64,000 nt of DNA from a virus (Duplodnaviria; Caudoviricetes). The stretch covers positions 96,001 to 160,000 of IMG/VR virus record IMGVR_UViG_3300049792_000048. One strand, given 5' to 3'. Numbering within the stretch: position 1 is the stretch's first letter; the number at the start of each line of letters is the position of its first letter. Positions 330 through 43,697 of the stretch are shown here, one piece after another. A program made the position numbers and the translations under genes. The notes beneath the pieces are model-generated. The model was not told the origin of the DNA and ran no database searches. It saw only the letters and a list, made by a program, of their open reading frames with translations.

Positions 330-2751
<2,422 letters not shown>

Positions 2752-4590: not shown

Positions 4591-6396
4591 ATGATGCTGA
4601 AGCGTGCGTTCTCGTCGGCTGAAGGCGAGCCGCCGGTTCATCTCATCGAGGCCGGGCACATGACGAAAGTCGCCGGCGCGCTTCCGCTCGTCGAGGACTT
4701 CATCTCGCGTCTGCGTCCAGACCCCAAGTACATGTTCACTCACGTGAACGCCATGGGGTACTCGGAGTACTACGGGCCGAACTCGAACGTCGACTACTAC
4801 GGGTACAACCCACACCTCGACTTCAACGGTCTGCTGCACGCTCCCGAGACGTGTCATCTGCACGGCGAATACGAGAACTGGGAGACCGATCCCGTCGTAC
4901 AGGCTCGCATCGCGAAGAGCTGGCCATTCGGTTACCCCAGCTACTACGGCGCGACGGTCTACGCCCACCACAAGAACTCGGACCCCACCTCGTTGGGCTT
5001 CGGGGATGTCGTGTTCGTCGCCCGCAACGAGGCACAGAAGCGCATCGAGCTCGTGATGCGAGTCGATGTCGACCTCGCCATGCAACGTGGTCACTCTGCG
5101 ATTCTTGATAGGATCGGACGAGGCGATCGAGTCGATGTCTCGATGGGCTGCAAGGTCCCCTTCGACTTCTGCTCGATCTGCACCGACTGGGAGGCCGTAA
5201 AGAAGGCCCAGAAGGGCTACGACCCCAAGCGCCACGCCAGCCCAGGTGTCGCCATCCTGGTGTATCACCGGACCGTGAAGCCCATCCGTGGGCTCGCCAT
5301 TACGAAGGCTGACTACTGCGACCACATGGTCAAGCAGCGTGGGCAGGTACTGGACGATGGCCAGAAGGTCTTCGTCTACAACGACTATCCACGCTTCTTC
5401 GACATCAGCTTCGTGTGGATCGGAGCTGACCGCACCGCACGCGTGATGTTCTTCATGGGTGCGAATGGCAGCCGGCCCGGGGAACGTCAGCGTCCTCAGA
5501 GTATCGGTGAGCTCGTGAAGGGGGCTTCGGACATGTCGAAGACAGCCAGTGAGAAGGCGGAACCTGGAACCCTTCTCACCCGAGACCGCCTCCGGAAAAT
5601 GAAGAAGATGGCAATGGAGAAGGAGATCCCTGGAGGCATCACACGCAAGGTCGAGCTCTGCGCCAACTCCGAGATGGATATCCCGTTCGGAGAGCTGGCC
5701 TCCTTCTCGAAGGAGGTGGGGGCAAAGACCCTGCTCTCTACGCTCGCTGGTCTGGGCATAATGCTCAAGCCGAACGAGTTCCATGGCGTCGTCGGCACCG
5801 AGCACCCGCTTCACGCGAAGGTCGCCGCGATGGCTGCCGAGCACAACATGACGTTCAGGACATCGCTGCCTGGATACGAGACTGGCTATGCCGTGGACCC
5901 CGCCCTCTTCTCGCCCAAGTTGGCGGAGAAGCTCATGCCTTACGTCGAGCACCGCTCTTCGTTTGCCCCGCATCTTCACTACCGGCTCGGCACGATGGCG
6001 AAGACGGCTTCGGCCCCTCTTCCACAGCTACTTGATGCCGTGTTCGTTCATGATGTCGCGGCTCTTTACAATGGGTATCGGGCCTCGCTCCTGAAGCAGG
6101 CTGAGCACCTGATGCCGAAGTACCACGAGGTGTCTCCACCCGACTTCGAGCAGTTGACGAAGACAGCCTCGCTGGCGGGTCTTCTCCTGTCTTCATCCAC
6201 CGTGGTACATTGGATTTCGGCTCACCTCGAAAAGGTGGCAGAGGTCGAAGAGGAACTTGGTGCTGCTGTGAAGTACGTGATGACAAGCCCCAACTACCGT
6301 AAGCTCAGTGCTCTCGGTGACGAGGTTTGCGCCACGATGAATCGGAGCACCAACTTCATCTCCGGGCTCCGGAACGCGGTGCAGATCGCACTGTAA
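4591..6396 (+). CDS. Putative prohead (maturation) protease, HK97/assemblin-like fold with Zn finger
   Basis: YAHHKN (His), DVSMGC (Ser), CSIC...YCDH, FFDISFVWIGAD; lies upstream of scaffold and capsid genes. Confidence 0.72.
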   Translation: MMLKRAFSSAEGEPPVHLIEAGHMTKVAGALPLVEDFISRLRPDPKYMFTHVNAMGYSEYYGPNSNVDYYGYNPHLDFNGLLHAPETCHLHGEYENWETDPVVQARIAKSWPFGYPSYYGATVYAHHKNSDPTSLGFGDVVFVARNEAQKRIELVMRVDVDLAMQRGHSAILDRIGRGDRVDVSMGCKVPFDFCSICTDWEAVKKAQKGYDPKRHASPGVAILVYHRTVKPIRGLAITKADYCDHMVKQRGQVLDDGQKVFVYNDYPRFFDISFVWIGADRTARVMFFMGANGSRPGERQRPQSIGELVKGASDMSKTASEKAEPGTLLTRDRLRKMKKMAMEKEIPGGITRKVELCANSEMDIPFGELASFSKEVGAKTLLSTLAGLGIMLKPNEFHGVVGTEHPLHAKVAAMAAEHNMTFRTSLPGYETGYAVDPALFSPKLAEKLMPYVEHRSSFAPHLHYRLGTMAKTASAPLPQLLDAVFVHDVAALYNGYRASLLKQAEHLMPKYHEVSPPDFEQLTKTASLAGLLLSSSTVVHWISAHLEKVAEVEEELGAAVKYVMTSPNYRKLSALGDEVCATMNRSTNFISGLRNAVQIAL

Positions 6397-6464: not shown

Positions 6465-7319
6465 ATGATGGACTTCGAGACGAAGATCGCAGCGGCGGGT
6501 GATGCTCTGATGAAGCTGGCGGCGGACCGCGGCCTCACTCTGAACGACTTCACGGAACAGGAGTCGATGGACCTCCTGGAGATGCTCATGGGCGAGCAGA
6601 ACAAGACCGCAGGAGAGGTCACGCCTGCGGCAGCGGCTCCGGCAGCCGTGACTCCTCCGGCGCAGGGCGCGGAGCCGACGGACAAGACGGCGAACGAGCA
6701 GCCGCAGCTCGACTACGGCATGGTGATGGCCGAGGTCGTGAAGGTCGCCGCGGCGAACAAGTTCGACCTGACGACGGCATCGCCCGCGGAGCTCAACGAC
6801 GCCGTCCAGAAGATGGCGGCGCTCATGAGCGACCCCACCTACGCGACGAAGCAGGCCGCGTTCCAGGAGAAGCTTGCAGAGGCCGACGCGATCGGCCGCG
6901 TGATGGCTCACTCCTACGTCGACGAGCTCTCGAAGATCGCCGAGTCGAACAAGGTCGCCAGCAAGACCGAGGACGAGAAGCGCGAGGAAGAGAAGAACGA
7001 GAAGAAGGCCGCGTTCGTTCGCGAGCTCCGCGCGAAGACCGCGGGCGAGATGCCCGAGGCCTTCAAGAAGCACATGAAGGGCAAGGGCAACGAGGACGAC
7101 AAGGGTGGCAAGGGCGACGAGAAGAGCGAAGACGACAAGAAGAAGGAAGAGGCCGAGAAGAAGGCTTCCTTCGCCAAGATCGCCGAGCTCCGTGCCGCGC
7201 AGATCCTCATCGAGAACGGTGTCAACCCGGCCACGAGCGAGAAGTTCGCTTCCGCCGACGAGCAGGTCGACGCTGCGGCTCTCAACCTCCTCGCGCAGAA
7301 GGGCTACAAGGTCGGCTGA
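6465..7319 (+). CDS. Putative scaffolding/core protein
   Basis: GAGGT RBS before ATG 6465; helical, charged, 15 K-x-A motifs. Confidence 0.65.
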   Translation: MMDFETKIAAAGDALMKLAADRGLTLNDFTEQESMDLLEMLMGEQNKTAGEVTPAAAAPAAVTPPAQGAEPTDKTANEQPQLDYGMVMAEVVKVAAANKFDLTTASPAELNDAVQKMAALMSDPTYATKQAAFQEKLAEADAIGRVMAHSYVDELSKIAESNKVASKTEDEKREEEKNEKKAAFVRELRAKTAGEMPEAFKKHMKGKGNEDDKGGKGDEKSEDDKKKEEAEKKASFAKIAELRAAQILIENGVNPATSEKFASADEQVDAAALNLLAQKGYKVG

Positions 7320-7337
7320 GCCGGCACCTGAGCACAC

Positions 7338-7574
7338 GTGATGAGCACCCACCCCAACTTGATGTTCGACAGCTTCCTGAAGACGGCGTCCACCGCCTCT
7401 GTCAGGCCAGCTTCGTCGTACGCCTCGTCGGGGATGGGTGACGCATCACAGAAGCTCAAGGTGACGAATGCGCCCAGCAAGTCGCAGTGGTCGTCACCGA
7501 ACCCGTCTCAGGCAACCCCCAACCAAAGCCCGTTCGCGGCTCAGAAGAACGCACCGCCTCCGCCGGTGCAGTGA
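7338..7574 (+). CDS. Small low-complexity head-module protein
   Basis: Fills operon gap; FLKTAS motif; Ser/Pro-rich. Confidence 0.5.
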   Translation: MMSTHPNLMFDSFLKTASTASVRPASSYASSGMGDASQKLKVTNAPSKSQWSSPNPSQATPNQSPFAAQKNAPPPPVQ

Positions 7575-7584
7575 GGAAGACGTC

Positions 7585-8487
7585 ATGCGAAAGCTCAGTG
7601 CACTGGTGAATACCGCACTCGAATCCGCGAGCGAGAAGATCGCCTCGACGGTCGATGCGAGCGCAGCGGAAGCCGTGAAGGCTGCCGAGGCCGAGAAGCG
7701 TGCCGCGGCGGCTGCTGCCGTTCCGGTCCGCACGAAGGAGGCCGAGAAGCGCGCAAGCGTGATCACCACGGCAGCCGAGGCCGTCAAGGTCGCCGAGGTG
7801 CTGGAGCATCTCGCGGTCGTGATGCCCAAGCTCGCCGAGATGGGCACGAACCGCGGTGGTGGCAGCACGAACGTGCAGGACCGCACCGGCCCCGAGATCC
7901 TCACGTCGCCCGACAAGGGCGTGACGAAGGACACGATGACGTCGGCCTCGTCGATCCCGGCGCAGCGTGCGCATTCGGGCGGTGGCCCCGGCCACGGCAT
8001 GCACATCGAGACGAACAAGAACGACGCGCCCTGGAGCAAGTCCAAGAGCGCGGCCGAGGAGATCCTCACGGCGAAGATCGCACAGAGCAATGCTCTGCTC
8101 GCGGTCGGTCGTGCGAAGGAGGCCACGGAGCTCGCGAACACGGCTCGCACCGAGTTCGAGACCGCCAAGAAGGCGTACGAGGAGGAGGATGCCTCCACCA
8201 AGACGCCGCACGGCAACCCGAAGTCGCTGGCGACGAACCGCAACCAGGGCGACCTCCCGGTCCCCACGGGTCCGGTCCGTGACAACGCGGGCATGATCTC
8301 GATGACCAAGCGCGACGCCAAGACGAAGGACGTCCGCGCCGAGGCAGGCAAGCACGTCTCGGAGACCGCTCTCTCGGCGAAGACCGACAAGGGTCTCTCC
8401 GACAACCTCGACCACATCGAGGGGGCGAAGATCGCTTCCATCCTCGACACCGCGGCAGCGCGAAAGGCGGCGGCCACGGCCGCCTGA
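7585..8487 (+). CDS. Putative core/scaffold protein
   Basis: GAGGA RBS; Ala-rich; many K-x-A motifs (KIAS, KRAS, KVAE, KLAE, KIAQ). Confidence 0.6.
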   Translation: MRKLSALVNTALESASEKIASTVDASAAEAVKAAEAEKRAAAAAAVPVRTKEAEKRASVITTAAEAVKVAEVLEHLAVVMPKLAEMGTNRGGGSTNVQDRTGPEILTSPDKGVTKDTMTSASSIPAQRAHSGGGPGHGMHIETNKNDAPWSKSKSAAEEILTAKIAQSNALLAVGRAKEATELANTARTEFETAKKAYEEEDASTKTPHGNPKSLATNRNQGDLPVPTGPVRDNAGMISMTKRDAKTKDVRAEAGKHVSETALSAKTDKGLSDNLDHIEGAKIASILDTAAARKAAATAA

Positions 8488-8499
8488 AGGGAGACGAAC

Positions 8500-8904
8500 A
8501 TGGACCTCATCAAGCTCGCTTCGGATTCGCCTGCCGTCCTTCTCGAAGGCGCCAAGACGATCCGCAAGCTCGCGTCGGACAACGTGGAGCTCCAGGCCGA
8601 CAAGATGGCTGCGCTCCACCAGCTCCACATCCACAAGCTCGCGATGCTGATGCACGAGCGCGGCCTGGAGCCCGCTCTGTCGCTGTCGGAGAAGGTCGCG
8701 CATCTGAGTTCGGTCGAGCCCTCGAAGCTCGATGCGATCGAAGCCGCCGTCGAGATGAGCGCGGGCGGCTTCAAGCTGGCGACGCTTCGCACCGACGAGG
8801 AGACCTCGTCTTCGCACGGTGCGGGGCCGACGACGTTGTCCGGGGAGCTCGGTTCCTCGGCGAACTACGACCGACTGGACGCGCTCGTCCAGGCGATCGG
8901 CTGA
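8500..8904 (+). CDS. Putative small scaffolding protein
   Basis: GGGAG RBS; 6 of 8 Lys in K-x-A; two genes before capsid gene. Confidence 0.6.
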   Translation: MDLIKLASDSPAVLLEGAKTIRKLASDNVELQADKMAALHQLHIHKLAMLMHERGLEPALSLSEKVAHLSSVEPSKLDAIEAAVEMSAGGFKLATLRTDEETSSSHGAGPTTLSGELGSSANYDRLDALVQAIG

Positions 8905-9459: not shown

Positions 9460-10572
9460 ATGCTGCACGATGCAAAGGAGCTGACCCTTCAGCACCTCTC
9501 GAACCCCGACGCGAAGACCAAGCTCGCGGCGGAGGTCGGGGGCTACATCCGAGACCGGCTGCGCGAGGCGTCGTTCCTGGAGCGGGTCCTCCCGCCCCAG
9601 ACCGTCACGCGCAGCGACTGCCAGATCTCGGTCAACCACGACTCGCTCGTGAAGATCGAGCACCTGGAGCCGCGTTCGCGCGCCATGGTGGTCACCTTCC
9701 GTGGCGAGCCGTCCGCCCGTCTCCTCCGCGGTGAGCGCGTCGAGGTGCCGTTCATCACCATCATGAGCGAGATGTACCAGAAGCCGGAGCAGGAGTTCCT
9801 GGCCTACCCGTACCCGCTCGGGAAGGTCGTCGAGCAGAACTCGATCCGCGACATCGGCGAGATCCAGGACCGTCAGTTCCTGATCTACTCCGAGGCCGCG
9901 GTGCAGGCCCTCCAGACCGAGGCGAACGGCACGACGACGTCGCTCAATGCGACGGCGCTCCAGAGCTCCACGCCCCCGGTGGAGTTCTCGGTCATCAAGG
10001 GCGAGCTCGCGCGTGCGGTCTCGACGAACGACGCGATCGTTCGTCCGATCCAGCGCCCGGACATCGTCAACCTGATGAAGCTCCTCGATGGCAACCGCCT
10101 CGAATGCGAGCTCATCCTCATCACGAGCAAGGATCTCGACGACGTCCTCCAGTGGACGATCGAGGACCAGGGCTCGAAGGTGCAGAGCGAGACCACCGTC
10201 CAGGGCTGGCAGTTCAACACCCTCCTCGGCAAGAAGCTGATCCGGACCATCAAGACGGACATCCTCCGTCCGGGCAACGTGTATGCGTACACGTCGCCGG
10301 AGTTCCTGGGTCGCTTCTACATCCTGAACAACGTCAAGTTCTACATCGACAAGGTGATCAACCTGATCAAGTTCGTCGCGTGGAAGGACGTCGGGATGAG
10401 CATCGTCAACGTCGCGTCGGTGCGCAAGCTGGAGCTCTACTCCGGCGACGCGACGTCGCTGAACGCCGACTCGGTTCTCGCGTCGGTCTCGCCGAAGGTC
10501 GAGGAAGATCTCGGGGCGCCGAACAACCGCGCCGCGGATCGCACGTTCTTCCCGGGCGTCGTCTCCTTCTGA
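9460..10572 (+). CDS. Major capsid protein (probable HK97 fold)
   Basis: 370 aa, strong RBS, very strong C/G codon bias, position after protease/scaffold/decoration genes, followed by hairpins; single K-x-A at residues 21-23. Confidence 0.8.
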   Translation: MLHDAKELTLQHLSNPDAKTKLAAEVGGYIRDRLREASFLERVLPPQTVTRSDCQISVNHDSLVKIEHLEPRSRAMVVTFRGEPSARLLRGERVEVPFITIMSEMYQKPEQEFLAYPYPLGKVVEQNSIRDIGEIQDRQFLIYSEAAVQALQTEANGTTTSLNATALQSSTPPVEFSVIKGELARAVSTNDAIVRPIQRPDIVNLMKLLDGNRLECELILITSKDLDDVLQWTIEDQGSKVQSETTVQGWQFNTLLGKKLIRTIKTDILRPGNVYAYTSPEFLGRFYILNNVKFYIDKVINLIKFVAWKDVGMSIVNVASVRKLELYSGDATSLNADSVLASVSPKVEEDLGAPNNRAADRTFFPGVVSF

Positions 10573-12225: not shown

Positions 12226-12711
12226 ATGTTGCCCGCACTACAGCTCATCGTGACCTGTACGAAGTGTCTTCGTGGGCTTCCTCGTACGCGGGAGTTCTTC
12301 CCTTCCCACAGCACAGCCAAAGATCGGATGGGGTCGTGGTGCTTGGTGTGTGCGAAAGAAGCAGGCCGTTCATGGAGAAGGAGACGCACCTGGGAGCAAA
12401 GATTGCTCAAAGCAGTGTTTGACCGACAGGTTCAGCGGTGGCCGGAAGAGGTGTTCGACCTGTCCATCCAAGTGCTCTCACAGATGCATGAGCATCAGAA
12501 TGGGCTCTGCCACTGGTATGGGGTTCCGTTCACCTACGAGACCAAATCTGGGCCCACCTTGATCTCAGTGGATCGCCTCGACAACAGTCGTGGCTACACG
12601 AAAGACAATGTGGTCCTTGCCTGCGACGCGGCGAACCGTGGTCGAAAGGACTACAGCCCCGAACAGTTCTCGCACTTCGTTGCCCAACTTCGGGCATCAA
12701 TGAGAGGATGA
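12226..12711 (+). CDS. HNH-like free-standing endonuclease
   Basis: CxxC...CxxC N-terminus; QNGLCHW...SVDRLDNSRGYTKDNVVLACDAAN; atypical codon usage. Confidence 0.75.
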   Translation: MLPALQLIVTCTKCLRGLPRTREFFPSHSTAKDRMGSWCLVCAKEAGRSWRRRRTWEQRLLKAVFDRQVQRWPEEVFDLSIQVLSQMHEHQNGLCHWYGVPFTYETKSGPTLISVDRLDNSRGYTKDNVVLACDAANRGRKDYSPEQFSHFVAQLRASMRG

Positions 12712-12715
12712 CCTC

Positions 12716-13195
12716 ATGACGATCTCTTTCATCAAGGCCAAGGACCCGGAGCAGCTTTCCCGGCTCTTGAACGGCCTCGTGCTCAGCAAGAAGAACCTGT
12801 CGCTGGGTCGTGATCTGGGCCCGCGTGCCATGCCGGGTGACCTCTACAAGCACCCAGTCGCTGGCCTCACCCTGATCTTCACGACGCCCGGGTTCACGGT
12901 GACGTTCTCGGCCAACCTCGACCTCAAGCACATCGTTGCAGAGATCAACACGGCTGCCGGCAAGGACATCGCTCACCTCATCCACTTCGATGACAATGGT
13001 GGTCAGGTGCTCGCCATCTGGGACGACACCACCCCGGTCGTCATGCTCAGCACGGGTACGGCCAACACGTACTTCGGATTTTCGACCACCGTGGCTGACC
13101 CACACCTCACGCAGACGGCGACCGACCCCGACAACATCGTCGCGATCGTCGTCGAGATTCTCAGCCGTCAGTACGTCGCCTTCATCAAGGGGTGA
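12716..13195 (+). CDS. Virion structural protein, paralog of fibre N-terminal domain
   Basis: LYKHPVAGLTL...LDLK.IV..IN...WDD.TPV...TGTAN.YFGFSTT shared with 25458..29321. Confidence 0.7.
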   Translation: MTISFIKAKDPEQLSRLLNGLVLSKKNLSLGRDLGPRAMPGDLYKHPVAGLTLIFTTPGFTVTFSANLDLKHIVAEINTAAGKDIAHLIHFDDNGGQVLAIWDDTTPVVMLSTGTANTYFGFSTTVADPHLTQTATDPDNIVAIVVEILSRQYVAFIKG

Positions 13196-13200
13196 GCATC

Positions 13201-15693
13201 ATGAGCCACGACCTCGACAAGACCTTGCTCTCGACCTTCAAGCCGACGAACCCCATCGGGTTCATCGACGGCTCATTCTTCATCGCGGGGATGAAGAAGA
13301 TGGCGGAGGGCGAGATGCCCGAAGCCGGTGCAGCCGAGGGCCCTTTCCTCGTGCCTCTCCCGCAGGCCGTCGAACTCATCGCACAGATGGTCTCGAACGA
13401 GTTCAAGACGCAGACGTACTACGTCTACTACGCGAACATGCTTCGTGGCCTCTCTCACGAGGGGATCGCGGAGGAGTTCATGGAGCATGCGGGGCACGAG
13501 CTCGAACATGCCGACTACCTGCTGCGGCGCATGAGTGTGCTGTCGCCGGGCGGCGTCTCGATCCCGCCCTACCCGCCGCCCGAGCCGCTGCACGACCCGA
13601 ATGAGATCGTGCAAGCGATGATCGTCGTCGAACAGATGGGCCTCACGCTGTGGAAGCAGCTCCACAGCATCTGTGGCGAGAACCCGATGAAGTTCACCAT
13701 CGAGCAGTTCCTCCAGCGCGAGGAGGAGCACCAGGATGAGCTCTGGCAGCTCGTCGAGCCCGCGGGCTTGCCTGCCATGCCCGTGGCTGAAGCTCCGGCT
13801 CCGACTGAGCAGTCCGCCGAAGGTCAGCCGGCATCGACGAAGGTGCAGGTCGAAACGACTCCGTCCGAGCCGAAGCAGGCAGCGGTCGCCACGTACGACG
13901 AGCTTCGTCGTGCAGGCCTCGATCCCAGCAAGAGCAAGAAGGCCGCCGACCTCACCGCTGGTGCCCGGTCCGAGATCAAAGACGACAACTTCGTGTTCCC
14001 TGCGGAACGCAAGTACCCCATCCACGACAAGGACCACGCCCTTGCCGCTCTTGGGATGGTCGGCATGCACGGCACGTCCGATGAGAAGTCGAAGGTGCGT
14101 GCAGCCGTCGAGAAGAAGTTCCCCGGCATCCACGAGCACGAGAAGAAGGCGGCGATGAAGGGCTTCCTCCAGAAGCGTATCGCCGACCTCAACAAGGACA
14201 TGGATGCAATCCACCACAAGGACCAGGTCCGTGTGGAGTTCGTGCCGCAGTCGCCCGCCGCACTTCGTGCACAGAAGCCGGACGTTCAGAAGAAGACCGA
14301 CAACGCGAAGTCGCCGAAGGACGTCTCGATCAAGCCGGTAGGTGCTCCGATCTCGCTGGTCGACCTCATCGAGAAGGGGAAGTCCGCTGCATATGTCGGC
14401 GGTGCGGTGCTCCCGAACAGCACCGACTTCTTCAAGAAGCACAAGGAGAACGAGAAGAAGTCGGACATGGTGATGCCCGATGCCGATTCTCCCGAAGCGT
14501 ACATCGAGCGTGAACAGCAGCTCGGTGCGCAGCAGGCGATGGCCGAAGCCTCGCACGCCAAGACCGTCGCGATGCAGGCCTCACAGGCGGCTCAGCAGGC
14601 GCAGGCAGAAGCTCAGGCTGCTCAGCAACAGCTCATGCAGGCCCAGCAGCAGGTCGAGCAGCTCACGCAGCAGTCCCAGATGGACTCGCAGCAGGCAATG
14701 ATGGCGACGCAGCAGGCTTCGGAAGCGGAAGGCCGTGCTGCCGATCACTCGATCCAGAAGATGCAGCTCGGCATGCGCGTCAACCAGATGCGGCAGGAGC
14801 TCGCCAACTTCGTGATGCAGGACCCGGTCGCCGAGTCCGCAGCCACGGTCAGTGACCTCGCCGCTCAGGGCATGCCGGCCACTCCCCAGCAGCAGGCGGA
14901 GGCCGAGGTTGCCGCACAGACCGGGGTCGCTCCTGGTCAAGAAGGAGCCCCCGGGCAAGATTCCCAGGATTCTGCGCCAGGGGGTCAGGAACAGGCCGCA
15001 GGAGGCCAGGAACAGCCCTCCGGTGGTGAGGCCAAGGGCGACGACAAGGGCGGCAAGCCTGGTACTCACGTCACCGTGAAGACTTCGGTCGACGTCGCGA
15101 CGATCGTGGGCAAGCGTGGTATCCGCGGTGCCGTCGGCGCTGCTGCGGCTCCCGCGGCTGGGGGTCTTGGTGCCCTCATCCAGAAGGCTCGTCCGTATCT
15201 GCCCGCAGCAGGTGCAGCGGCTGGTGGTCTCGCTCTCGCGGGTGGGGCCATGGCGAGCCGTGACAAGAGCGCGGGGGTCGTCGACTCCGTGGGTCGTGCG
15301 ACCGGACGCAGCATCGCTCACGGTATGGGTGAGGCGGCGACCGAGGCGTTCGCGAAGCACGCACCCAATGCAGGTGCGGCTGCTCTCGCCGGCGGAGGCA
15401 TCCTCGCTGCTCACAGCATGCATGCTCGCTCTCAGCGCAAGTCCGACATGGCGGACTCGGTCGCCGAGGGGATCCGTCGTGCGAAGACGGGTTCTCATGG
15501 TGACACCGCTGAGCGTGCGGTGAACGCTGCCATCAACCACGGTGTCGGATCCGCCCAGCGCGGTGTCCACGCCCTCGGTCCGCATCTTCGTGACCACATG
15601 CCCGCGTTCGTCGCTGGCCTCGGCACCGGCATCCTCGGCACGAAGGTGCTGTCGTCGCCTCCTCCCATCGACCCGTCGCAACAGCAGTACTGA
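13201..15693 (+). CDS. Multimodular head protein: ferritin-like domain, RKYPIHD domain, Gln/Ala coiled coil, Gly-rich hydrophobic peptides
   Basis: E..Y..Y, EHAGHELEHADYL and EEEHQDEL ferritin-like motifs; FPAERKYPIHDKDHA; modules separated by K-x-A/S/G. Confidence 0.7.
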   Translation: MSHDLDKTLLSTFKPTNPIGFIDGSFFIAGMKKMAEGEMPEAGAAEGPFLVPLPQAVELIAQMVSNEFKTQTYYVYYANMLRGLSHEGIAEEFMEHAGHELEHADYLLRRMSVLSPGGVSIPPYPPPEPLHDPNEIVQAMIVVEQMGLTLWKQLHSICGENPMKFTIEQFLQREEEHQDELWQLVEPAGLPAMPVAEAPAPTEQSAEGQPASTKVQVETTPSEPKQAAVATYDELRRAGLDPSKSKKAADLTAGARSEIKDDNFVFPAERKYPIHDKDHALAALGMVGMHGTSDEKSKVRAAVEKKFPGIHEHEKKAAMKGFLQKRIADLNKDMDAIHHKDQVRVEFVPQSPAALRAQKPDVQKKTDNAKSPKDVSIKPVGAPISLVDLIEKGKSAAYVGGAVLPNSTDFFKKHKENEKKSDMVMPDADSPEAYIEREQQLGAQQAMAEASHAKTVAMQASQAAQQAQAEAQAAQQQLMQAQQQVEQLTQQSQMDSQQAMMATQQASEAEGRAADHSIQKMQLGMRVNQMRQELANFVMQDPVAESAATVSDLAAQGMPATPQQQAEAEVAAQTGVAPGQEGAPGQDSQDSAPGGQEQAAGGQEQPSGGEAKGDDKGGKPGTHVTVKTSVDVATIVGKRGIRGAVGAAAAPAAGGLGALIQKARPYLPAAGAAAGGLALAGGAMASRDKSAGVVDSVGRATGRSIAHGMGEAATEAFAKHAPNAGAAALAGGGILAAHSMHARSQRKSDMADSVAEGIRRAKTGSHGDTAERAVNAAINHGVGSAQRGVHALGPHLRDHMPAFVAGLGTGILGTKVLSSPPPIDPSQQQY

Positions 15694-15702
15694 GGAGCAA
15701 AC

Positions 15703-16635
15703 ATGGATCAGCTCAACAAGTTCTTGATCGACACATTCGGCGGCACCAAGTTGGCCTCGGCCACTCCGATCGAGGCAGTCGAGCCGAACGAGTACGATCG
15801 CATCGCGTTCAAGCGTGCCTTCCTGGACGGCTGCGTCGACGAAAAGTTCCTCGCATCGTTCGAGGGGACTCCTCTCGCTCCGCAGGCGATCGCTCTGTGT
15901 GAGCAGGAGCTCGCAATGGAGCAGGCTCAGCTCCAGGCTCGCATGGCTCGTGACGCGCAGAACGCCGCCTTCGACTACACGAAGGAGTGCAACGAACGCG
16001 AGGGCATGAGGCTCCAGAAGCTTCAGCTCACCATCCAGCTTCACAAGATGAAGACGATGGGCGTCGGCGCTCCGACTCCTCCGGGCCAGGCCGTGATTGG
16101 TACGCCCGATCCTGCGGCTGCTGCGATGGCTGCTCCGCCCGAGCTGGGTGGGGGTGCCGAAGGTGGGGCTCCGGTGCAGGAGCCCGCTGGTGGCAAGCTC
16201 GCCGCTCTCATGACGAAGGTCGCCGAGAAGAAGAACAAGGCGAAGGACGAGATGATCAGTCGAGGCCGTCGTGCCAGCACGGGCGCGACCATCGGCAACG
16301 TCCTGGGCTCCCCAGTCTTCAGCCAGGAGTTCACTCCCGGCTCGATGATCGGCTCCGTGATCGGTGGCGGCATCGGTGGCGCTGTGGCTGACGGTGGCCG
16401 TGGCGCCCTCATGGGAGCGGCGGGTGCGGGCGGTGGCGCAGCGATGGGGGCCCTCGCCGGGCATGGTGTCGCGAAGGCTCTCAAGCTCCGTGACCCCGGC
16501 CTCGCTCGTGGACTCGGCTCCCTGATGGGTGCGACATATGGAGCTCCGATCGCCGTCGAAGGCGGACGTGCAATCGCCGAGGCGCAGAAGCGCGCCAGTC
16601 TCTCCGAGCTCATCCAGTTCTCGCTGGGGAAGTGA
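15703..16635 (+). CDS. Head-module protein with C-terminal glycine zipper
   Basis: GAGGAG RBS; TKLAS, GKLAA, TKVAE, QKRAS; GxxxG-rich C-terminus. Confidence 0.6.
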   Translation: MDQLNKFLIDTFGGTKLASATPIEAVEPNEYDRIAFKRAFLDGCVDEKFLASFEGTPLAPQAIALCEQELAMEQAQLQARMARDAQNAAFDYTKECNEREGMRLQKLQLTIQLHKMKTMGVGAPTPPGQAVIGTPDPAAAAMAAPPELGGGAEGGAPVQEPAGGKLAALMTKVAEKKNKAKDEMISRGRRASTGATIGNVLGSPVFSQEFTPGSMIGSVIGGGIGGAVADGGRGALMGAAGAGGGAAMGALAGHGVAKALKLRDPGLARGLGSLMGATYGAPIAVEGGRAIAEAQKRASLSELIQFSLGK

Positions 16636-17384
16636 TGTTCGACCTCGACCTCATCGTGAAGGCAGCAGCGGTGGCCGTACGTCCTCATGTACGGCGTGCG
16701 CCGGGGACTGTCGTCGGCAAGGTCAAGAAGTCAGGACTAATGAGCACCATCGGTCTCGAAGCAGGTCAGGTCGGCAAGCATGTCAACCAGGCCGCCCGCA
16801 TCGCACAGCAAGGTGCAGATCCTGTTCGTCGTGCAGCGGTGGCTGAGCTCGCCGGCTACTACAAGAACTTGGGCACCTCCGCAGGAACGCAAGCAGCTCA
16901 GCACTCCATGACGATGGCTGCGCAGAAGGCGCAGACGGCTGTCCCGCAGATGGCGAATGTGGTCGCCAAGAAGACGCCCACGATGGCCTTCTCACAGGGG
17001 TCCGTTCTTCAGCACGCCGCTCAGCAGCTCGGTCCCCAGAAGGTGATCGCTGGCGCTGTGCAGCATGGAGCTCCCGTCATCGGAAGCGCCAGTGTGCTGG
17101 ATCATCTTTCGCAGATGCCCTTCGGCAAGTTGGCTCATGCCCTCGAACGCGGGTACGCACCGTCGCTCCCGAAGGGAGTTGATGTCTCGATGGGCCGGAT
17201 GAAGAACCAGCCCCAGTCCGAAGCCGGCTACGGCACTCCCGATACGCTCAGCGCGGCCAACCCGAAGAAGCCGAAGCCGAAGCGCACACGTGACGGCATC
17301 ACTGTCGCGGAGCTCCTCGATCAGCTTGCTCAGCAGGCAGGACTGTTCCCCAAGCCGAACAAGACCACGGGATCTTCTCACTGA
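16632..17384 (+). CDS. Ala/Gln-rich virion-module protein
   Basis: Coupled to both neighbours; VKAAA, GKLAH. Confidence 0.55.
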   Translation: MMFDLDLIVKAAAVAVRPHVRRAPGTVVGKVKKSGLMSTIGLEAGQVGKHVNQAARIAQQGADPVRRAAVAELAGYYKNLGTSAGTQAAQHSMTMAAQKAQTAVPQMANVVAKKTPTMAFSQGSVLQHAAQQLGPQKVIAGAVQHGAPVIGSASVLDHLSQMPFGKLAHALERGYAPSLPKGVDVSMGRMKNQPQSEAGYGTPDTLSAANPKKPKPKRTRDGITVAELLDQLAQQAGLFPKPNKTTGSSH

Positions 17385-18302: not shown

Positions 18303-18620
18303 ATGAAGAAGCTATCCACTTTCGACGGTGCCGTCCTCGCGGCCATGGGCGACGAGCTCGCCCACATCAAGACCGCCATCAACCTGGCTCCCGTGGGCAA
18401 CATGCTCGGGGCGCTCGGCTCGAAGGCGCTCACCGGGGCGACCACACTCGCCGGTCGGGCGTCGCCGGCGATCGGTCAGGCCGTGAGCGGTGGACTCCTT
18501 CGTGCTGGCCAGGCGGTCGGTGGTGGCGCCAACCTCTCGAAGCTCGTGGGCGGTGGTCTTGCCGGTGCCGGAGCTCTCGCAGCGGGCTCGGCCCTCGGCG
18601 GTGGGCAGCGGAGATACTGA
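18303..18620 (+). CDS. Small glycine-zipper protein
   Basis: GAGGA RBS; DELAHIKTA followed by Gly/Ala/Leu-rich segments. Confidence 0.6.
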   Translation: MKKLSTFDGAVLAAMGDELAHIKTAINLAPVGNMLGALGSKALTGATTLAGRASPAIGQAVSGGLLRAGQAVGGGANLSKLVGGGLAGAGALAAGSALGGGQRRY

Positions 18621-19941: not shown

Positions 19942-22900
19942 ATGACCACTCCGAACATGCTTCCCCGGCCGGGCGTCAAGGTTTTCACCGAGTTCCGGAA
20001 CGTCAACCCCACGATCTTCAAGCCCCAGATGCCCGCCTGCGTGATGGGCGTGGCGAAGGAGGTCGTGCAGGCTGTCCTGGACGACGGTACGCTGAACAGC
20101 CAAGCGCTGCTCGCGCTGCCGGCTCGGATCGAGTTCCCGTACGTCTCGACGCCGTTTCAGTACGCGACGCTTGGAGGCCTCACCCTCCAGCTCAGCGTGA
20201 ACAACGGCCCCACCCAGACCATCACGTTCCCGGGCTCGCCGGCGAACCCGACGGTCGCGGAGGTGAAGGCGTACATCGACTCGCTCGACATCGTCGGGCT
20301 ACTCGTCGACATCGAGACGAGCGGTGCGCAGCAGCGCATCGTTTTGCGTACGGTCGCCACGGGCCCGTTCGCGACGCTTTCGATCATGGGCGGCACCAGC
20401 CTCACCGTGCTGAACCTGCGCGCTGGCGGGTACACGGAGACGGGTCGCGGCGGCTACAACAACTTCTACTCGGTCGACCTCGGCCTGGGGAACTACCCGA
20501 ACCCGCGCAGCAACCTCGACGAGCTCACGCTCGACTACACGACGGTGCGTGTGTTCGCCGCGATCGGCGGAGGCGCTTTCGTCGAGGTCAGCCGCACGAG
20601 CACGTTCATGCGTGGTGCGACGTCCGCGGTCAGCGTCTTCGATGACGGTGATGGCGACAACCTCTCGCCGTACCTCACGTTCGCCGGCCAGAACTTCACC
20701 GATGGCGCTGCGGTCCTCACCGGCACCGTCGATCTGTCGGGTACGTTCGGAGCCCTGAACGGCACGAGCGCGATCTTCTCGAAGGATGGCGCCGGAGCCA
20801 TCACCACGAACTTCTCGGCTGCGGCCAGCGCTGCGGACATCGTCTCGCAGATCAACGCCGCGTTCGGTTCGACCGTCGCATCGCTCGGCACGAGCAACCA
20901 TCTCGTCCTCACGTCCGGCACGACTGGTCCGGGCTCGTCGTTCGAGCGCACGGGTGGCTCCGCGACATCGGGCAACCTCGGTCTCGCCATCGGCGATTAC
21001 GCCGCGGGTCGCCGCAGTCGTGCTCGTACGCAGGGCAGCGTCGATCTCACGGGCCTCACGTACGGCGCTGGTGGCCCGTTCGCGACGCCTGGCCGCTCGC
21101 TCATCATGAGCGTGGATGGCGAGGCCGAGCAGACGCTCATCATCGGTCCCACGATCGCCAACGCTGCGGCTCTCGTGACGGCCATCAACACGAAGTGGCA
21201 GGTGCCCGCAGGCAATGCCATCGCGTCGCTGAACGGCGGCAACAAGCTCGTGCTTCGCTCGCCCAACACTCAGGGTGGTGAGGAGAGCGTCCTCCGTATC
21301 AACTCGCTCTCGACGGCGATCGCCACGCTCGGTATCACTGCGGGTCGCTACGCTGGCAATGCGTACGCCCCGGCTGTGGGCGATGAAGTCTTCGGCAACG
21401 GCATCCGCCTCGGCCTCATCACGGAGGTCGCTCCCGCTGGCGTGGTGACGCGCCTCCGCCTCGACACGGAGTACCTGCTGACCGCGACGTGGGTCAACTT
21501 CTACATCCGTGCGCTCGACCTCACGGGCCCCCAGACTTCGACTCGCCCGAGTGCTGACCTCCAGGTCGACGCGACCTCGGGCGAGATCATCGTCAAGCAC
21601 GAAACCTTCCGTGCTCCTGATGGCACGCCGACGGCCGCGGTCGACCTGGGGGTCTACCTCGGGTACACGGCGCTTCGTCGCGATGTGTCGGCAGCCGGCA
21701 CCAACAGCAACCTCCTCCGCATCGGTGACCTCACCACGCTGGAGTCGAAGCTGTCGCCCATCAGCCCCGAGAACCCCCTGGGCCTCGGTATGTACTTCGC
21801 GATGCTCAGCGCTCCGGGCCTGGAATCGTTCGGCCTGGGCATCGGCGAGGCGACCACCACGGAGCCGTTCGGCACGCTCGGAGCATGGGCGGAGGCCTAC
21901 ACGTTCATCGAGTCGAAGGACGTGTACGCGATCGCGCAGCTCACCCACGACCTCACGGTCTCGGACCTCGCGGATGCTCACGTCACGGCGATGAGCGATC
22001 CCGAGGTCGGTCTCGAACGTGTCGTGTTCAACAACCCGACGCGTCCGGAGCGCACGGCGAACGAACTCATCGGCTCGGGCTCGCTCGGCAACAGCACGGG
22101 TGGCGTCTCGACGTTCGACACGGGTCTGGCGAACCTGCCGGCTCTGCTCGCTGCGGCTGGCCACCCGGCCCCGCCGTACGACATCGACGACCGCATCGTC
22201 CTCAAGCTGGAGGACGACACCAACAACTACCTCATCACTGGGGTGGCCGGCTCGCTCGTCACAGTCAGCACGGGAGCTCTCGCTGCTGGCACCGACGAGG
22301 ACAACGCCGACGGGTTCTACTTCGACGGCAGCTCGCCGGCGTTCGCCAACCCGATCGTCGACCGCCCCTTCTCGATCTTCATCCGTGGCACCGTGCTCGC
22401 GGACCTGACCGAGGAAGCGATCGCATACGCCGCGATCCCGCAGGGCTACAAGAACCGCCGCATGATCTTCGTCACGCCCGACAAGGCGAAGGCGACCATC
22501 GACGGTCTGGAGCAGGAGATCGAGGGCTTCTATGTCTGCGCCGCGCTCGCGGGCAAGACGGCGTCGAAGCTCCCGGCCGACCCGATGACCAACGTCGGCA
22601 TCAAGGGCTTCACCGGCCTCATCGGTGCGAGCGATCGCTACGGTGAGATCCAGTACCGCATCATGGACGGGGGTGGCCTTTGGAACATGTTCCAGGAGAC
22701 CGCGGGCCAATCCATCCAGACCCGCCACCAGCTCACGTCGGACGTCGACACGATCGAGCAGCGCGAGTTCTCGATCCTGACGGCGCTCGACTTCACGGCG
22801 AAGTTCCTCCGCGGCGGTCTGCGGAACTACATCGGCCGGTTCAACATCACGCAGAACCTCCAGAGCTCGATCAGCACGGCGCTGGACGGCCTCGGGAACT

Positions 22901-23043
22901 TCCTCACCGTCCAGAAGGTGCTGGCGTCCTTCAAGGTCGCTCGCCTCGTGCAGAACCCGGATCAGCCGGACTCGCTGCTCCTCGACCTGAACGTGGGGGT
23001 GTTCTATCCCTGCAATGAAATAAAGGTCACACTTATCGTTTGA
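19942..23043 (+). CDS. Contractile tail sheath protein with inserted repeat domains
   Basis: N-terminal RPGVKV, YVCAALAG, RHQLTSD..EQREFSI..LDF, C-terminal FYPCNEIKVTL; strong codon bias. Confidence 0.85.
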   Translation: MTTPNMLPRPGVKVFTEFRNVNPTIFKPQMPACVMGVAKEVVQAVLDDGTLNSQALLALPARIEFPYVSTPFQYATLGGLTLQLSVNNGPTQTITFPGSPANPTVAEVKAYIDSLDIVGLLVDIETSGAQQRIVLRTVATGPFATLSIMGGTSLTVLNLRAGGYTETGRGGYNNFYSVDLGLGNYPNPRSNLDELTLDYTTVRVFAAIGGGAFVEVSRTSTFMRGATSAVSVFDDGDGDNLSPYLTFAGQNFTDGAAVLTGTVDLSGTFGALNGTSAIFSKDGAGAITTNFSAAASAADIVSQINAAFGSTVASLGTSNHLVLTSGTTGPGSSFERTGGSATSGNLGLAIGDYAAGRRSRARTQGSVDLTGLTYGAGGPFATPGRSLIMSVDGEAEQTLIIGPTIANAAALVTAINTKWQVPAGNAIASLNGGNKLVLRSPNTQGGEESVLRINSLSTAIATLGITAGRYAGNAYAPAVGDEVFGNGIRLGLITEVAPAGVVTRLRLDTEYLLTATWVNFYIRALDLTGPQTSTRPSADLQVDATSGEIIVKHETFRAPDGTPTAAVDLGVYLGYTALRRDVSAAGTNSNLLRIGDLTTLESKLSPISPENPLGLGMYFAMLSAPGLESFGLGIGEATTTEPFGTLGAWAEAYTFIESKDVYAIAQLTHDLTVSDLADAHVTAMSDPEVGLERVVFNNPTRPERTANELIGSGSLGNSTGGVSTFDTGLANLPALLAAAGHPAPPYDIDDRIVLKLEDDTNNYLITGVAGSLVTVSTGALAAGTDEDNADGFYFDGSSPAFANPIVDRPFSIFIRGTVLADLTEEAIAYAAIPQGYKNRRMIFVTPDKAKATIDGLEQEIEGFYVCAALAGKTASKLPADPMTNVGIKGFTGLIGASDRYGEIQYRIMDGGGLWNMFQETAGQSIQTRHQLTSDVDTIEQREFSILTALDFTAKFLRGGLRNYIGRFNITQNLQSSISTALDGLGNFLTVQKVLASFKVARLVQNPDQPDSLLLDLNVGVFYPCNEIKVTLIV

Positions 23044-43691: not shown

Positions 43692-43697
43692 AATAGA

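What the first reader, a model, noticed from the sequence alone, without database searches (positions are those of the whole stretch)
13201..15693. Ferritin-like domain embedded in a head polyprotein
Seen: order is leader-KKMA | four-helix ferritin-like domain (ELEH and EEEH metal-type motifs) | KQAA/KKAA | RKYPIHD module | KKAA, KSAA, KKS | Gln/Ala coiled coil | KTS, KSAG, KTG separating three Gly-rich peptides. Known: encapsulins are HK97-fold shells that load ferritin-like cargo. Inference: a phage capsid packaging a ferroxidase-like cargo, perhaps to protect DNA from iron/oxidative damage or to be ejected into the host.
Basis: partly seen in the sequence, partly recalled or inferred. Interest (0 to 1): 0.75.

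Follow-up and report, generated by a model that had tools for sequence, protein, structure and literature searches.

The report
Ferritin module in phage head polyprotein
A 196-kb uncultured phage encodes, between its capsid and tail-sheath genes, an 830-residue protein that starts with an intact iron-oxidising ferritin-type domain flanked by conserved K-x-A motifs that look like capsid-protease cutting sites, so the phage probably packs a ferritin-like enzyme into its head, though packaging is not shown.

Summary
ORF 13201-15693 (+) encodes 830 aa. Residues 53-184 are a genuine ferritin four-helix bundle (Pfam PF00210 above threshold; model pLDDT >90). The closest solved structures are DPS-like proteins, bacterioferritins and mini-bacterioferritin. 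All six di-iron ligands and the conserved Tyr are present.

K-x-[AGS] motifs in this one protein are no more numerous than chance. Five of them (33, 225, 246, 627, 762) are conserved in homologues and lie in disordered linkers.

Across about 150 diverged relatives the motif is almost universal just before and just after the ferritin domain, and it is depleted inside it. It is strongly enriched in neighbouring scaffold-like proteins and at the N-termini of head-module genes. An upstream gene gives its best, though modest, fold matches to T4 gp21 and herpesvirus assemblin.

Most likely this is a leader-targeted head-internal precursor, cut to release a 21-kDa ferritin-like protein. Packaging, cleavage and ferroxidase activity remain inferred.

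The family is viral, always N-terminal in long modular proteins, always near the capsid gene, and was not found in the papers I searched. The scan noted the same family earlier on other DNA (e1-5634750).

The parts
13201..15693 (+). Whole gene: 830-aa multi-module precursor plus stop codon
   Evidence: ORF list. Gene call with the same start on the source contig. SD-like AAGGGG upstream of ATG 13201.
13201..13305 (+). N-terminal leader, residues 1-35. Amphipathic helix 21-35 ending in K33-M34-A35. Proposed capsid-targeting propeptide and first cleavage site.
   Evidence: Helix 21-35 is followed by disorder in the AF2 model. F27, K33 and A35 are near-invariant in 43 homologues. K-x-[AGS] occurs in the pre-domain region of 145 of 146 diverged relatives, against a shuffle mean of 71 and maximum of 84.
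13306..13356 (+). Acidic extension, residues 36-52, ending in the conserved EGPF-VPLP motif (PDETG-LEGQF in distant relatives)
   Evidence: Alignments. Disordered at 38-45 in the model.
13357..13752 (+). Ferritin-type four-helix bundle, residues 53-184. Di-iron ligands E67, E100, H103, E144, E174, H177, plus Y74.
   Evidence: PF00210. pLDDT 89-98. Foldseek matches to 2clb, 1jgc, 3e1n, 9qq4 and 8w1d/e. phmmer matches to 8w1d and 2clb. Ligand columns in 150 relatives.
13753..13881 (+). Disordered Pro/acidic linker, residues 185-227, ending in K225-Q-A227. Proposed second cleavage site; residues 36-227 would give a 21.3 kDa product, pI 4.5.
   Evidence: pLDDT 36-55. The site is conserved in 35 of 42 homologues. 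K-x-[AGS] lies within 70 aa after the domain in 144 of 147 relatives, against a shuffle mean of 106 and maximum of 117. Fragment masses.
13882..13944 (+). Short spacer, residues 228-248, ending in K246-K-A248
   Evidence: Conserved in all 18 homologues that have this segment. Disordered at 244-250.
13945..14226 (+). Small helical module, residues 249-342, containing RKYPIHD (270-276). Related to phrog_16160 and, below threshold, to DUF6582. Function unknown.
   Evidence: phrog_16160 E 1.1e-9. DUF6582 at 21.8 bits against a cut-off of 27.3. pLDDT 86-91. Nearest Atlas clusters are 75-109-aa viral proteins. Detected in 11 of 150 relatives.
14476..14895 (+). Gln/Ala-rich coiled coil, residues 426-565. 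With the ferritin domain it is the most conserved part of the close family.
   Evidence: Invariant A513, R531 and Q565, plus many near-invariant columns. Helices 431-506 and 510-540 at pLDDT about 80. Detected in 56 of 150 relatives.
15079..15087 (+). K627-T-S629 at the end of the conserved GT-H-VTVKTS element. Proposed cleavage site.
   Evidence: Conserved in 35 of 42 homologues. Disordered in the model.
15088..15690 (+). Gly/Ala-rich C-terminal region, residues 630-830, with three mildly hydrophobic glycine-zipper-like stretches (643-661, 667-685, 800-818). K689-S-A and the conserved K762-T-G764 lie in this region.
   Evidence: Composition G 16%, A 23%, and hydropathy windows. K762 site conserved in 29 of 42 homologues; K689 present in only 6. 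Mostly pLDDT <50.
4594..6396 (+). Candidate prohead protease: N-terminal domain about residues 40-290, then a helical C-terminal part with many K-x-A motifs
   Evidence: The best structural matches among 48,161 chains are T4 gp21 (5jbl, Z 6.5, 134 aligned) and VZV protease (Z 5.4); HCMV and KSHV proteases also appear. Foldseek gives only weak HCMV protease rows. Invariant H126 and S183 lie in the conserved YAHH and DVSMG motifs. 12 K-x-A against 3.6 expected. More than 645 homologues, many interrupted by inteins.
9460..10572 (+). Major capsid protein, with a single K-L-A at residues 21-23
   Evidence: phrog_2522 major head protein, E 1.2e-8. Present 2.3-4.6 kb upstream of the ferritin gene in all 20 related loci, with a conserved K-[LIV]-A at about 21-26.
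6465..8904 (+). Three Ala/Lys-rich scaffold-like genes (6465-7319, 7585-8487, 8500-8904) dense in K-x-A motifs
   Evidence: 19, 14 and 6 K-x-[AGS] sites in 284, 300 and 134 aa. The same pattern is seen in the distant relative L002.
19942..23043 (+). Tail sheath, which marks the downstream end of the head/neck gene block
   Evidence: phrog_2839 and phrog_279 tail sheath, E 1.4e-9 and 3e-7.

Best explanation
The gene encodes a head-internal precursor of a large uncultured myovirus.

Shown:
- Its first folded module is a true ferritin-superfamily four-helix bundle with a complete bacterioferritin/DPSL-type intrasubunit di-iron site.
- That module lies between a roughly 35-residue amphipathic leader ending in K-M-A and a disordered linker carrying K-Q-A.
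- Both motifs are almost universal in about 150 diverged relatives and are avoided inside the domain.
- The same K-x-A motif is greatly over-represented in the neighbouring scaffold-like proteins and in the first 35 residues of head-module genes.

Inferred:
- The leader targets the precursor into the assembling prohead, as the capsid targeting sequence does for T4 internal proteins.
- A gp21/assemblin-fold prohead protease (4594-6396) cuts after K-x-A/S/G in exposed linkers.
- Cutting releases a 21-kDa acidic ferritin-like protein (residues 36-227), a small phrog_16160 module, a Gln/Ala coiled-coil module and Gly/Ala-rich peptides.
- The ferritin module then oxidises and sequesters Fe(II), consuming O2 or H2O2. 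It does this either next to the packaged DNA, or after ejection with the DNA into the host.
For: Ferritin identity:
- PF00210 at 45.3 bits against a cut-off of 24.5.
- Model pLDDT above 90.
- Foldseek probability 1.0 to DPSL 2clb, Bfr 1jgc and 3e1n, mini-Bfr 9qq4 (target TM 0.86) and PA4880 8w1d/e.
- The ligand set EEHEEH is present in the query and in 98 of 150 relatives. Y74 is present in 149 of 150.

Head context:
- The capsid gene lies 2.3-4.6 kb upstream in 20 of 20 loci.
- The sheath gene lies downstream.
- Gene order is kept in a relative whose protein is 30% identical to the query in alignment A1.

Cleavage-site signature, in about 150 relatives:
- K-x-[AGS] occurs before the domain in 145 of 146 (shuffle maximum 84).
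- It occurs after the domain in 144 of 147 (shuffle maximum 117).
- It occurs inside the domain in only 41 of 149 (shuffle minimum 70).
- K-x-A has z = +18 and +15 in the flanks and -5 in the domain. R-x-[AGS] and the reversed motif are not enriched.
- The conserved sites fall in disordered segments or at helix ends.

Genome-wide:
- 12 of 19 head-module genes have K-x-A in the first 35 aa, against 29 of 174 other genes. Fisher p = 3e-5.
- Scaffold-like neighbours carry 10-19 sites each.

Protease candidate:
- The best VIA matches are T4 gp21 and VZV assemblin.

Modularity:
- The downstream modules vary between lineages while the ferritin module stays N-terminal.

Independent parallel:
- BFVD holds uncultured-phage proteins annotated 'Prohead protease' or 'Dps', of 290-763 aa, that match this model.
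Against: - No proteomic, structural or biochemical data exist for this phage or any relative. Packaging, cleavage and iron chemistry are all inferred.
- The relatives are phylogenetically related, so the shuffle statistics overstate independence.
- The protease assignment rests on middling structural scores (Z 6.5 and 5.4; Foldseek not significant) and a mediocre model of the N-terminal domain.
- About 30 of 150 relatives have lost one or more ligands, including P0041 and P0042 in the close family. Iron chemistry is therefore not indispensable everywhere.
- The module is acidic (pI 4.5) and has no Dps-like basic DNA-binding tail.
Confidence: 0.55

Rival explanations
1. The protein is packaged or virion-associated but is not a polyprotein. 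It stays essentially intact, with at most the leader removed. It acts as one large internal or ejection protein. The ferritin domain stays tethered to the coiled coil and to the Gly/Ala-rich, possibly membrane-active, C-terminus.
For: The K-x-A count in this protein is at chance level, and only five sites are conserved. In SPN3US nearly all known protease cuts remove N-terminal propeptides rather than dissecting proteins (PMC10052503). Neighbouring genes with leaders and glycine-zipper-like segments resemble sets of ejection proteins.
Against: The post-domain K-x-A is as conserved as the leader site (144 of 147 relatives) and lies in a hypervariable disordered linker. The downstream modules are swapped freely between lineages. 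That fits separable products.
Confidence: 0.2
2. The protein is an auxiliary metabolic enzyme that works in the infected cell and is not packaged. Like the stand-alone DPS-like proteins and Mn-catalases of gut phages, it would lower free iron and reactive oxygen species during replication. Its position among the structural genes would only reflect late expression.
For: Stand-alone DPS-like proteins and Mn-catalases are reported in phage genomes and are read as aids to host oxidative tolerance (PMC8008677). BFVD also lists free-standing phage Dps and ferritin proteins.
Against: No close stand-alone form was found. In the top 150 relatives the domain is N-terminal in proteins mostly 400-1340 aa long. 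It carries the same K-x-A-terminated leader type as other head-module genes. It is fixed next to the capsid gene in 20 of 20 loci. Only one match turned up in 185,579 prokaryote species genomes, so a recently acquired host gene is unlikely.
Confidence: 0.13
3. The ferritin fold has been co-opted as a non-catalytic structural bundle, for example part of a scaffold core or inner body. The metal site would be a relic.
For: Roughly 30 of 150 relatives have degenerate ligand sets, and P0041 and P0042 lost ligands on all four helices while keeping the fold. The domain is fused to a scaffold-like coiled coil.
Against: The query and 98 of 150 relatives keep all six ligands, and 20 more differ only by His to Asp. 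Y74 is kept in 149 of 150. This is stronger conservation than a relic site would be expected to show.
Confidence: 0.1

Closest known systems
DPS-like proteins, mini-bacterioferritins and bacterioferritins: P. aeruginosa PA4880 (8w1d/8w1e), S. solfataricus DPSL (2clb), Ca. Methanoperedens mini-Bfr (9qq4, PMC13168243), E. coli Bfr (3e1n)
   Same: The same four-helix bundle and the same intrasubunit di-iron site: Glu, Glu-x-x-His, Glu, Glu-x-x-His, plus a Tyr seven residues after the first Glu. These are the best sequence and fold matches.
   Different: - Only 16-24% identity.
- Leu, not Met, sits at the position of the bacterioferritin haem ligand.
- There is no conserved DPSL cysteine pair.
- The domain is never free-standing. 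It sits behind a cleavable-looking leader at the N-terminus of a long modular phage protein.
- Oligomeric state is unknown.
- The family is essentially absent from cellular genomes.
T4 internal proteins with a capsid targeting sequence cut by gp21, and the propeptide-bearing head and ejection proteins of phiKZ-like phages such as SPN3US, cut by gp245 at A-x-E (PMC10052503, PMC5694885, PMC9026906)
   Same: A short N-terminal leader ends in a three-residue P3-x-P1 motif shared by many head-module proteins. Scaffold-like proteins are dense in the motif. A gp21/assemblin-fold protease candidate lies upstream. The cargo need not be structural.
   Different: The motif here is Lys-x-Ala/Ser/Gly rather than Leu/Ile-x-Glu or Ala-x-Glu. 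Conserved sites also lie between modules, suggesting dissection of a polyprotein. The cargo is a ferritin-type enzyme. No protein data exist for this lineage.
Encapsulin systems with ferritin-like cargo: EncFtn, Flp and double-ferritin-fold ferroxidases (PMC11202242; bioRxiv 10.1101/2025.09.13.676036)
   Same: The concept is the same: an HK97-fold shell that encloses an iron-oxidising ferritin-superfamily protein by means of a short address peptide.
   Different: The cargo is a full Bfr/DPSL-type bundle, not a two-helix EncFtn. The address is N-terminal and looks proteolytically removed, not a C-terminal cargo-loading peptide. The shell is the capsid of a DNA-filled tailed virus with portal, sheath and tail.
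Stand-alone DPS-like and Mn-catalase genes of phages ('Gratiaviridae' and other gut phages, PMC8008677; Lactobacillus phages, PMC6669764), and the Phyre2-predicted 'ferritin' gp217 in a Vi01-like phage proteome (PMC10892097)
   Same: These are phage-encoded members of the ferritin-like di-iron superfamily, linked to iron and oxidative stress.
   Different: Those are small free-standing proteins read as host-tolerance aids or tail-associated iron carriers. No tblastn match to any of 50,697 deposited phage genomes was found for the present protein.
Herpesvirus assemblin maturation sites, consensus Val/Leu/Ile-x-Ala followed by Ser (from my own knowledge, not checked in a paper here)
   Same: P1 is Ala with a defined P3 residue. 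The protease fold family is the one that the candidate 4594-6396 matches best.
   Different: P3 here is Lys, and P1' is variable (Ala, Glu, Asp, Ser). The specificity is inferred from sequence statistics only.

Membership tests
Ferritin-like domain (Pfam PF00210) | Profile match above the curated gathering score | tested here: met
   45.3 bits against 24.5, E 1.1e-11. 42 of 43 family members match.
Ferritin-like domain (Pfam PF00210) | Four-helix bundle with a long B-C crossover loop | tested here: met
   Helices 53-81, 87-114, 133-158 and 163-184 at pLDDT 89-98. Foldseek probability 1.0, target TM 0.65-0.86 to ferritins.
Bacterioferritin/DPSL-type ferroxidase centre | Intrasubunit di-iron ligands Glu(A), Glu-x-x-His(B), Glu(C), Glu-x-x-His(D), and a Tyr seven residues after the first Glu | tested here: met
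   E67, E100/H103, E144, E174/H177 and Y74 in the query. Full set in 98 of 150 relatives; Tyr in 149 of 150.
Bacterioferritin (haem-binding Bfr) | Met next to the helix-B Glu that ligates haem at the dimer interface (Met52 in E. coli Bfr; from established knowledge) | tested here: not met
   The position after E100 is Leu101. It is Leu in most relatives and Met in only a few.
DPSL ('thioferritin') | Conserved cysteine pair beside the di-iron site (from established knowledge of 2clb) | tested here: not met
   In the phmmer alignment to 2clb, the 2clb Cys residues face Met and His of the query, and the query's only domain Cys faces Tyr. That column is Val, Leu or Met in most relatives.
Cage-forming ferritins (12-mer or 24-mer) | Self-assembly into a hollow shell | not testable with these tools
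No homo-oligomer model was made.
Canonical Dps | Intersubunit ferroxidase site and, in many members, a basic DNA-binding tail | tested here: not met
   The ligand layout is the intrasubunit Bfr type. The released module would be acidic, pI 4.5, with an acidic N-terminal extension. The intersubunit Dps motif itself was not searched for.
Encapsulin ferritin-like cargo (EncFtn/Flp) | Two-helix half-ferritin, or Flp with a C-terminal cargo-loading peptide, encoded beside an encapsulin shell gene | tested here: not met
   The domain is a full four-helix bundle followed by about 640 further residues. The neighbouring shell gene is a phage major head protein in a genome with a tail sheath.
Prohead-protease-processed internal head proteins (T4 IP / phiKZ-SPN3US type) | N-terminal targeting propeptide ending in the protease's recognition motif, shared with other head proteins | tested here: met
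   The leader with terminal K-x-[AGS] occurs in 145 of 146 relatives. 12 of 19 head-module genes have it against 29 of 174 others. This is met at the sequence level only.
Prohead-protease-processed internal head proteins (T4 IP / phiKZ-SPN3US type) | A phage-encoded prohead protease of the gp21/HK97/assemblin fold | tested here: inconclusive
   The top VIA rows are T4 gp21 (Z 6.5) and VZV protease (Z 5.4), but the Z values are middling and Foldseek is not significant. Conserved His and Ser motifs are present.
Prohead-protease-processed internal head proteins (T4 IP / phiKZ-SPN3US type) | Presence in virions and actual cleavage at the motif | not testable with these tools
DUF6582 (PF20223) / phrog_16160 | Profile match for the RKYPIHD module | tested here: inconclusive
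   phrog_16160 E 1.1e-9. DUF6582 scores 21.8 bits, below its cut-off of 27.3. The best Atlas cluster scores 0.89, with DUF6582 on 13% of its members.

The most novel reading that the evidence does not exclude
A whole lineage of large uncultured phages uses its capsid as an encapsulin uses its shell. A cleavable N-terminal leader would load an active Bfr/DPSL-type ferroxidase into the head. There it is freed from a modular polyprotein by an assemblin/gp21-fold protease with a previously undescribed Lys-x-Ala specificity. The virion would then carry its own iron and oxidant defence, or deliver it to the host with the DNA.
Probability: 0.4. Interest if true: 0.8.

Novelty: new variant of a known kind. 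Interest (0 to 1): 0.66.

Why it matters
If the module is packaged and active, tailed-phage capsids can carry redox and iron enzymes as cargo. That would be a virus-side counterpart of encapsulin iron compartments, and it bears on the evolutionary link between HK97-fold capsids and encapsulins.

It would also:
- define a new prohead-protease specificity (K-x-A) that lets head-internal proteomes be predicted from sequence in a large clade of uncultured phages;
- offer a natural leader and cleavage system for loading foreign proteins into capsids;
- suggest that iron-driven oxidative damage to packaged DNA, or iron and ROS conditions at the moment of infection, is a selective pressure on virions.

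Tried and rejected
- tblastn of the whole protein against 50,697 deposited phage genomes gave no match.
- A word-based search for short (30-455 aa) stand-alone relatives of residues 36-227 found none. P0028, which lacks the ferritin domain, sits on a 2.3-kb contig and is probably a fragment, so it is not evidence of a split gene.
- A simple excess of K-x-A motifs in this protein was rejected: 9 observed against 7.9 expected. The argument therefore rests on position and conservation.
- An alignment-column count of the leader motif gave only 76 of 150, because the leader was misaligned. I replaced it with an alignment-free count.
- Foldseek of the protease model against the PDB found nothing significant, only weak HCMV protease rows.
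- A Pfam scan of the 43 close homologues found no other domain in the variable parts. Scans of the query's downstream segments gave only sub-threshold DUF6582 and coiled-coil noise.
- Complex prediction, intended to test dimer or cage formation of the ferritin module, was not available.
- Rejected reading, true encapsulin or EncFtn membership: the fold and the address differ.
- Rejected reading, haem-binding bacterioferritin: no Met ligand.
- Rejected reading, recent host-derived gene: one match in 185,579 species genomes, on a MAG contig that may itself be viral.
Full report
**The gene**

The window is part of a 195,774-bp contig. Earlier notes of this scan describe it as an uncultured phage. 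The ORF list shows one long open frame at 13192-15693 (+). The gene call on the source contig starts at ATG 13201. That start is preceded by AAGGGG and lies just after the upstream stop at 13195. All residue numbers below use this 830-aa form.

**Ferritin domain**

- Pfam PF00210 matches at E 1.1e-11, 45.3 bits against a cut-off of 24.5.
- phmmer against PDB sequences gives the DPS-like proteins PA4880 (8w1d, E 6.5e-6) and S. solfataricus DPSL (2clb, E 5.1e-5) as best hits. Bacterioferritins follow at E 0.1-1.
- An AlphaFold2 model built on a 43-sequence alignment has four helices (53-81, 87-114, 133-158, 163-184) at pLDDT 89-98.
- Foldseek places the model with DPSL, bacterioferritins and the recently described mini-bacterioferritin 9qq4 at probability 1.0 and target TM up to 0.86 (PMC13168243).
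- The Bfr-type intrasubunit ligand set is complete: E67, E100-x-x-H103, E144, E174-x-x-H177. So is the Tyr seven residues after the first Glu (Y74).
- Among 150 representatives of clusters at 50% identity, 98 keep all six ligands and 20 more differ only by His to Asp. About 30 are degenerate. Y74 is kept in 149.
- The bacterioferritin haem Met is Leu here, and the DPSL cysteine pair is absent.
- The domain is therefore a distinct clade of PF00210. It is closest to the DPSL/mini-Bfr/Bfr group.

**Architecture**

| Residues | Element |
|---|---|
| 21-35 | Leader helix ending K33-M-A35 |
| 36-52 | Disordered acidic stretch with a conserved EGPF-VPLP motif |
| 53-184 | Ferritin bundle |
| 185-227 | Disordered Pro-rich linker ending K225-Q-A227 |
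| 228-248 | Short spacer ending K246-K-A248 |
| 249-342 | Small confident helical module containing RKYPIHD (phrog_16160 E 1e-9; DUF6582 below threshold) |
| 343-425 | Poorly ordered stretch |
| 426-565 | Gln/Ala coiled coil, highly conserved in the close family |
| to 629 | GT-H-VTVK627-T-S |
| 630-830 | Gly/Ala-rich tail with three mildly hydrophobic stretches and a conserved K762-T-G |

**Are the K-x-A/S/G motifs meaningful?**

Within this protein alone they are not. K-x-A occurs 9 times against 7.9 expected from shuffles. The evidence is positional.

- Sites 33, 225, 627 and 762 are conserved in 29-40 of 42 homologues. Site 246 is conserved in all 18 homologues that have that segment. The other sites are not conserved.
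- In the hypervariable linker after the domain, the K-x-A columns stand out as the only conserved features.
- I ran an exhaustive profile-free search with residues 34-225. It found 340 clusters at E <= 1e-3. The best 150 are mostly proteins of 400-1340 aa with the domain at about residues 30-230.
- In these 150, K-x-[AGS] occurs before the domain in 145 of 146 (shuffle mean 71, maximum 84). It occurs within 70 aa after the domain in 144 of 147 (mean 106, maximum 117). It occurs inside the domain in only 41 of 149 (mean 84, minimum 70).
- The enrichment is specific. K-x-A has z = +18 and +15 in the flanks and -5 inside the domain. R-x-[AGS] and the reversed motif are not enriched.
- These sequences are related, so the z-values overstate independence. 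The direction of all three tests is nevertheless what selection for exposed protease sites, and against internal ones, predicts.

**Genome context**

- The major head protein (9460-10572, phrog_2522) lies upstream and the tail sheath (19942-23043) lies downstream.
- The same gene order is kept in a relative whose ferritin protein is only 30% identical to the query in alignment A1.
- In all 20 related loci fetched, the capsid gene lies 2.3-4.6 kb upstream. Each capsid protein carries one conserved K-[LIV]-A at about residues 21-26.
- Upstream of the capsid gene are Ala/Lys-rich scaffold-like proteins with 19, 14 and 6 K-x-[AGS] motifs in 284, 300 and 134 aa. A 267-aa protein has 10 K-x-A against 1.5 expected, z 7.8.
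- Twelve of 19 head-module genes have K-x-A in their first 35 residues, against 29 of 174 other predicted genes. Fisher p = 3e-5.

**Protease candidate**

- ORF 4594-6396 has more than 645 homologues, many interrupted by inteins.
- It has a strongly conserved N-terminal domain with invariant His (YAHH) and Ser (DVSMG) motifs.
- Its model is only moderate, and Foldseek finds nothing significant.
- An exhaustive structural comparison ranks T4 prohead protease gp21 first (Z 6.5, 134 residues) and varicella-zoster assemblin second (Z 5.4). HCMV and KSHV proteases rank lower.
- I treat this as moderate support.

**Mechanism proposed**

By analogy with T4 internal proteins and the SPN3US/phiKZ head proteins, I propose the following. 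In those systems short or long N-terminal propeptides end in a P3-x-P1 motif, target proteins to the prohead core, and are removed by the prohead protease (PMC10052503).

- The leader brings the precursor into the prohead.
- The protease then cuts after K-x-A/S/G.
- Cutting at the conserved sites would free a 21.3-kDa ferritin-like protein of pI 4.5 (residues 36-227) and further modules.

Downstream modules differ between lineages. The coiled coil is detectable in 56 of 150 relatives, the RKYPIHD module in 11 and the C-terminal region in 8. That fits a chain of separable cargo units behind a constant ferritin head.

What the ferritin does cannot be decided here. It may protect the packaged DNA from Fe(II)/peroxide chemistry, or it may act in the host after ejection. 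A single four-helix bundle is narrow enough in principle to pass through a tail tube, whereas a cage would stay in the head (my inference).

**Comparison with what is known**

- Phage-encoded DPS-like proteins and Mn-catalases have been reported as free-standing genes and read as host-tolerance aids (PMC8008677).
- A Phyre2-level 'ferritin' was noted in a Vi01-like phage proteome (PMC10892097).
- My full-text searches found no paper describing a ferritin domain inside a head-module polyprotein or a K-x-A prohead-protease motif.
- BFVD contains uncultured-phage proteins annotated 'Prohead protease' or 'Dps', of 290-763 aa, that match the model. This suggests that ferritin-superfamily domains have been joined to head-assembly proteins more than once.
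- The family is essentially viral. There are 18 IMG/VR loci and a single match in 185,579 prokaryote species genomes. That match is on a 72.7-kb contig of a Myxococcales MAG that may itself be phage.
- Earlier notes of this scan describe the same family in another genome (e1-5634750), and other ferritin types in other phage head modules. I treated these as leads and re-tested the claims on this genome.

**Limits**

- Nothing here shows protein in particles, cleavage, metal binding or oligomeric state.
- The tool for complex prediction and the tool for sequencing runs were unavailable.

**Verdict**

- This is a new variant of known kinds: protease-processed phage internal proteins, and ferritin cargo in HK97-fold shells.

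Noticed in passing
window 43307-43692 (+): A full-length tmRNA gene (Rfam RF00023, 141.9 bits; ARAGORN tag peptide ending in ...AGRVA) encoded inside this 196-kb phage contig.
   Followed up: partly
window 12226-12711, 23077-23727 (+): Endonuclease VII/HNH-type genes (phrog_3322, phrog_1035) are inserted among the structural genes. One lies two genes upstream of the ferritin gene. L002 has an HNH_3 gene at the equivalent spot.
   Followed up: no
L002 1-2406, and P0053, P0061, P0077 and others: Many homologues of the candidate prohead protease are about 950 aa long because they carry an intein with a LAGLIDADG homing endonuclease (Hint_2, Intein_splicing, LAGLIDADG_3 Pfam hits).
   Followed up: no
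window 13780-13810 and 15061-15087: A strand-like T/S-x-V-x-V-x-T element (STKVQVET after the ferritin domain; GTHVTVKTS after the coiled coil) recurs just upstream of conserved K-x-A/S sites in many homologues. It may be part of the recognition element.
   Followed up: partly
window 13306-13356; relatives: The motif PDETG-LEGQF (EGPF-VPLP in the query) between leader and ferritin domain is conserved across very distant relatives. Its role is unknown.
   Followed up: no
P0041, P0042 and about 30 of 150 representatives: Some family members have replaced ferroxidase ligands (for example K/S/N at the helix-A Glu, or A/D/E at the helix-B His) while keeping the fold and the flanking K-x-A motifs.
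   Followed up: partly
genome positions left of the window: window coordinates -24457..-23153 and -5749..-3563: Two further predicted proteins, of 434 and 728 aa, are strongly enriched in K-x-A (11 against 2.7 and 12 against 2.9 expected). They may be more protease substrates, and one could be the portal.
   Followed up: no
window 15703-16635, 16635-17384, 18303-18620, 18649-19089: The genes following the ferritin gene also begin with short leaders ending in K-x-A/G, and several carry Gly/Ala-rich glycine-zipper-like segments. They look like a set of small head-internal or ejection proteins.
   Followed up: partly
window 330-2282 (-): A DNA gyrase B gene (DNA_gyraseB, Toprim, HATPase_c) lies just upstream of the head module.
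   Followed up: no
L021 (CALFEQ010000011.1, 72.7-kb contig): The only hit in the species-genome collection is a contig binned into an uncultured Myxococcales MAG. This is a weak hint at the host, or a mis-binned phage contig.
   Followed up: no
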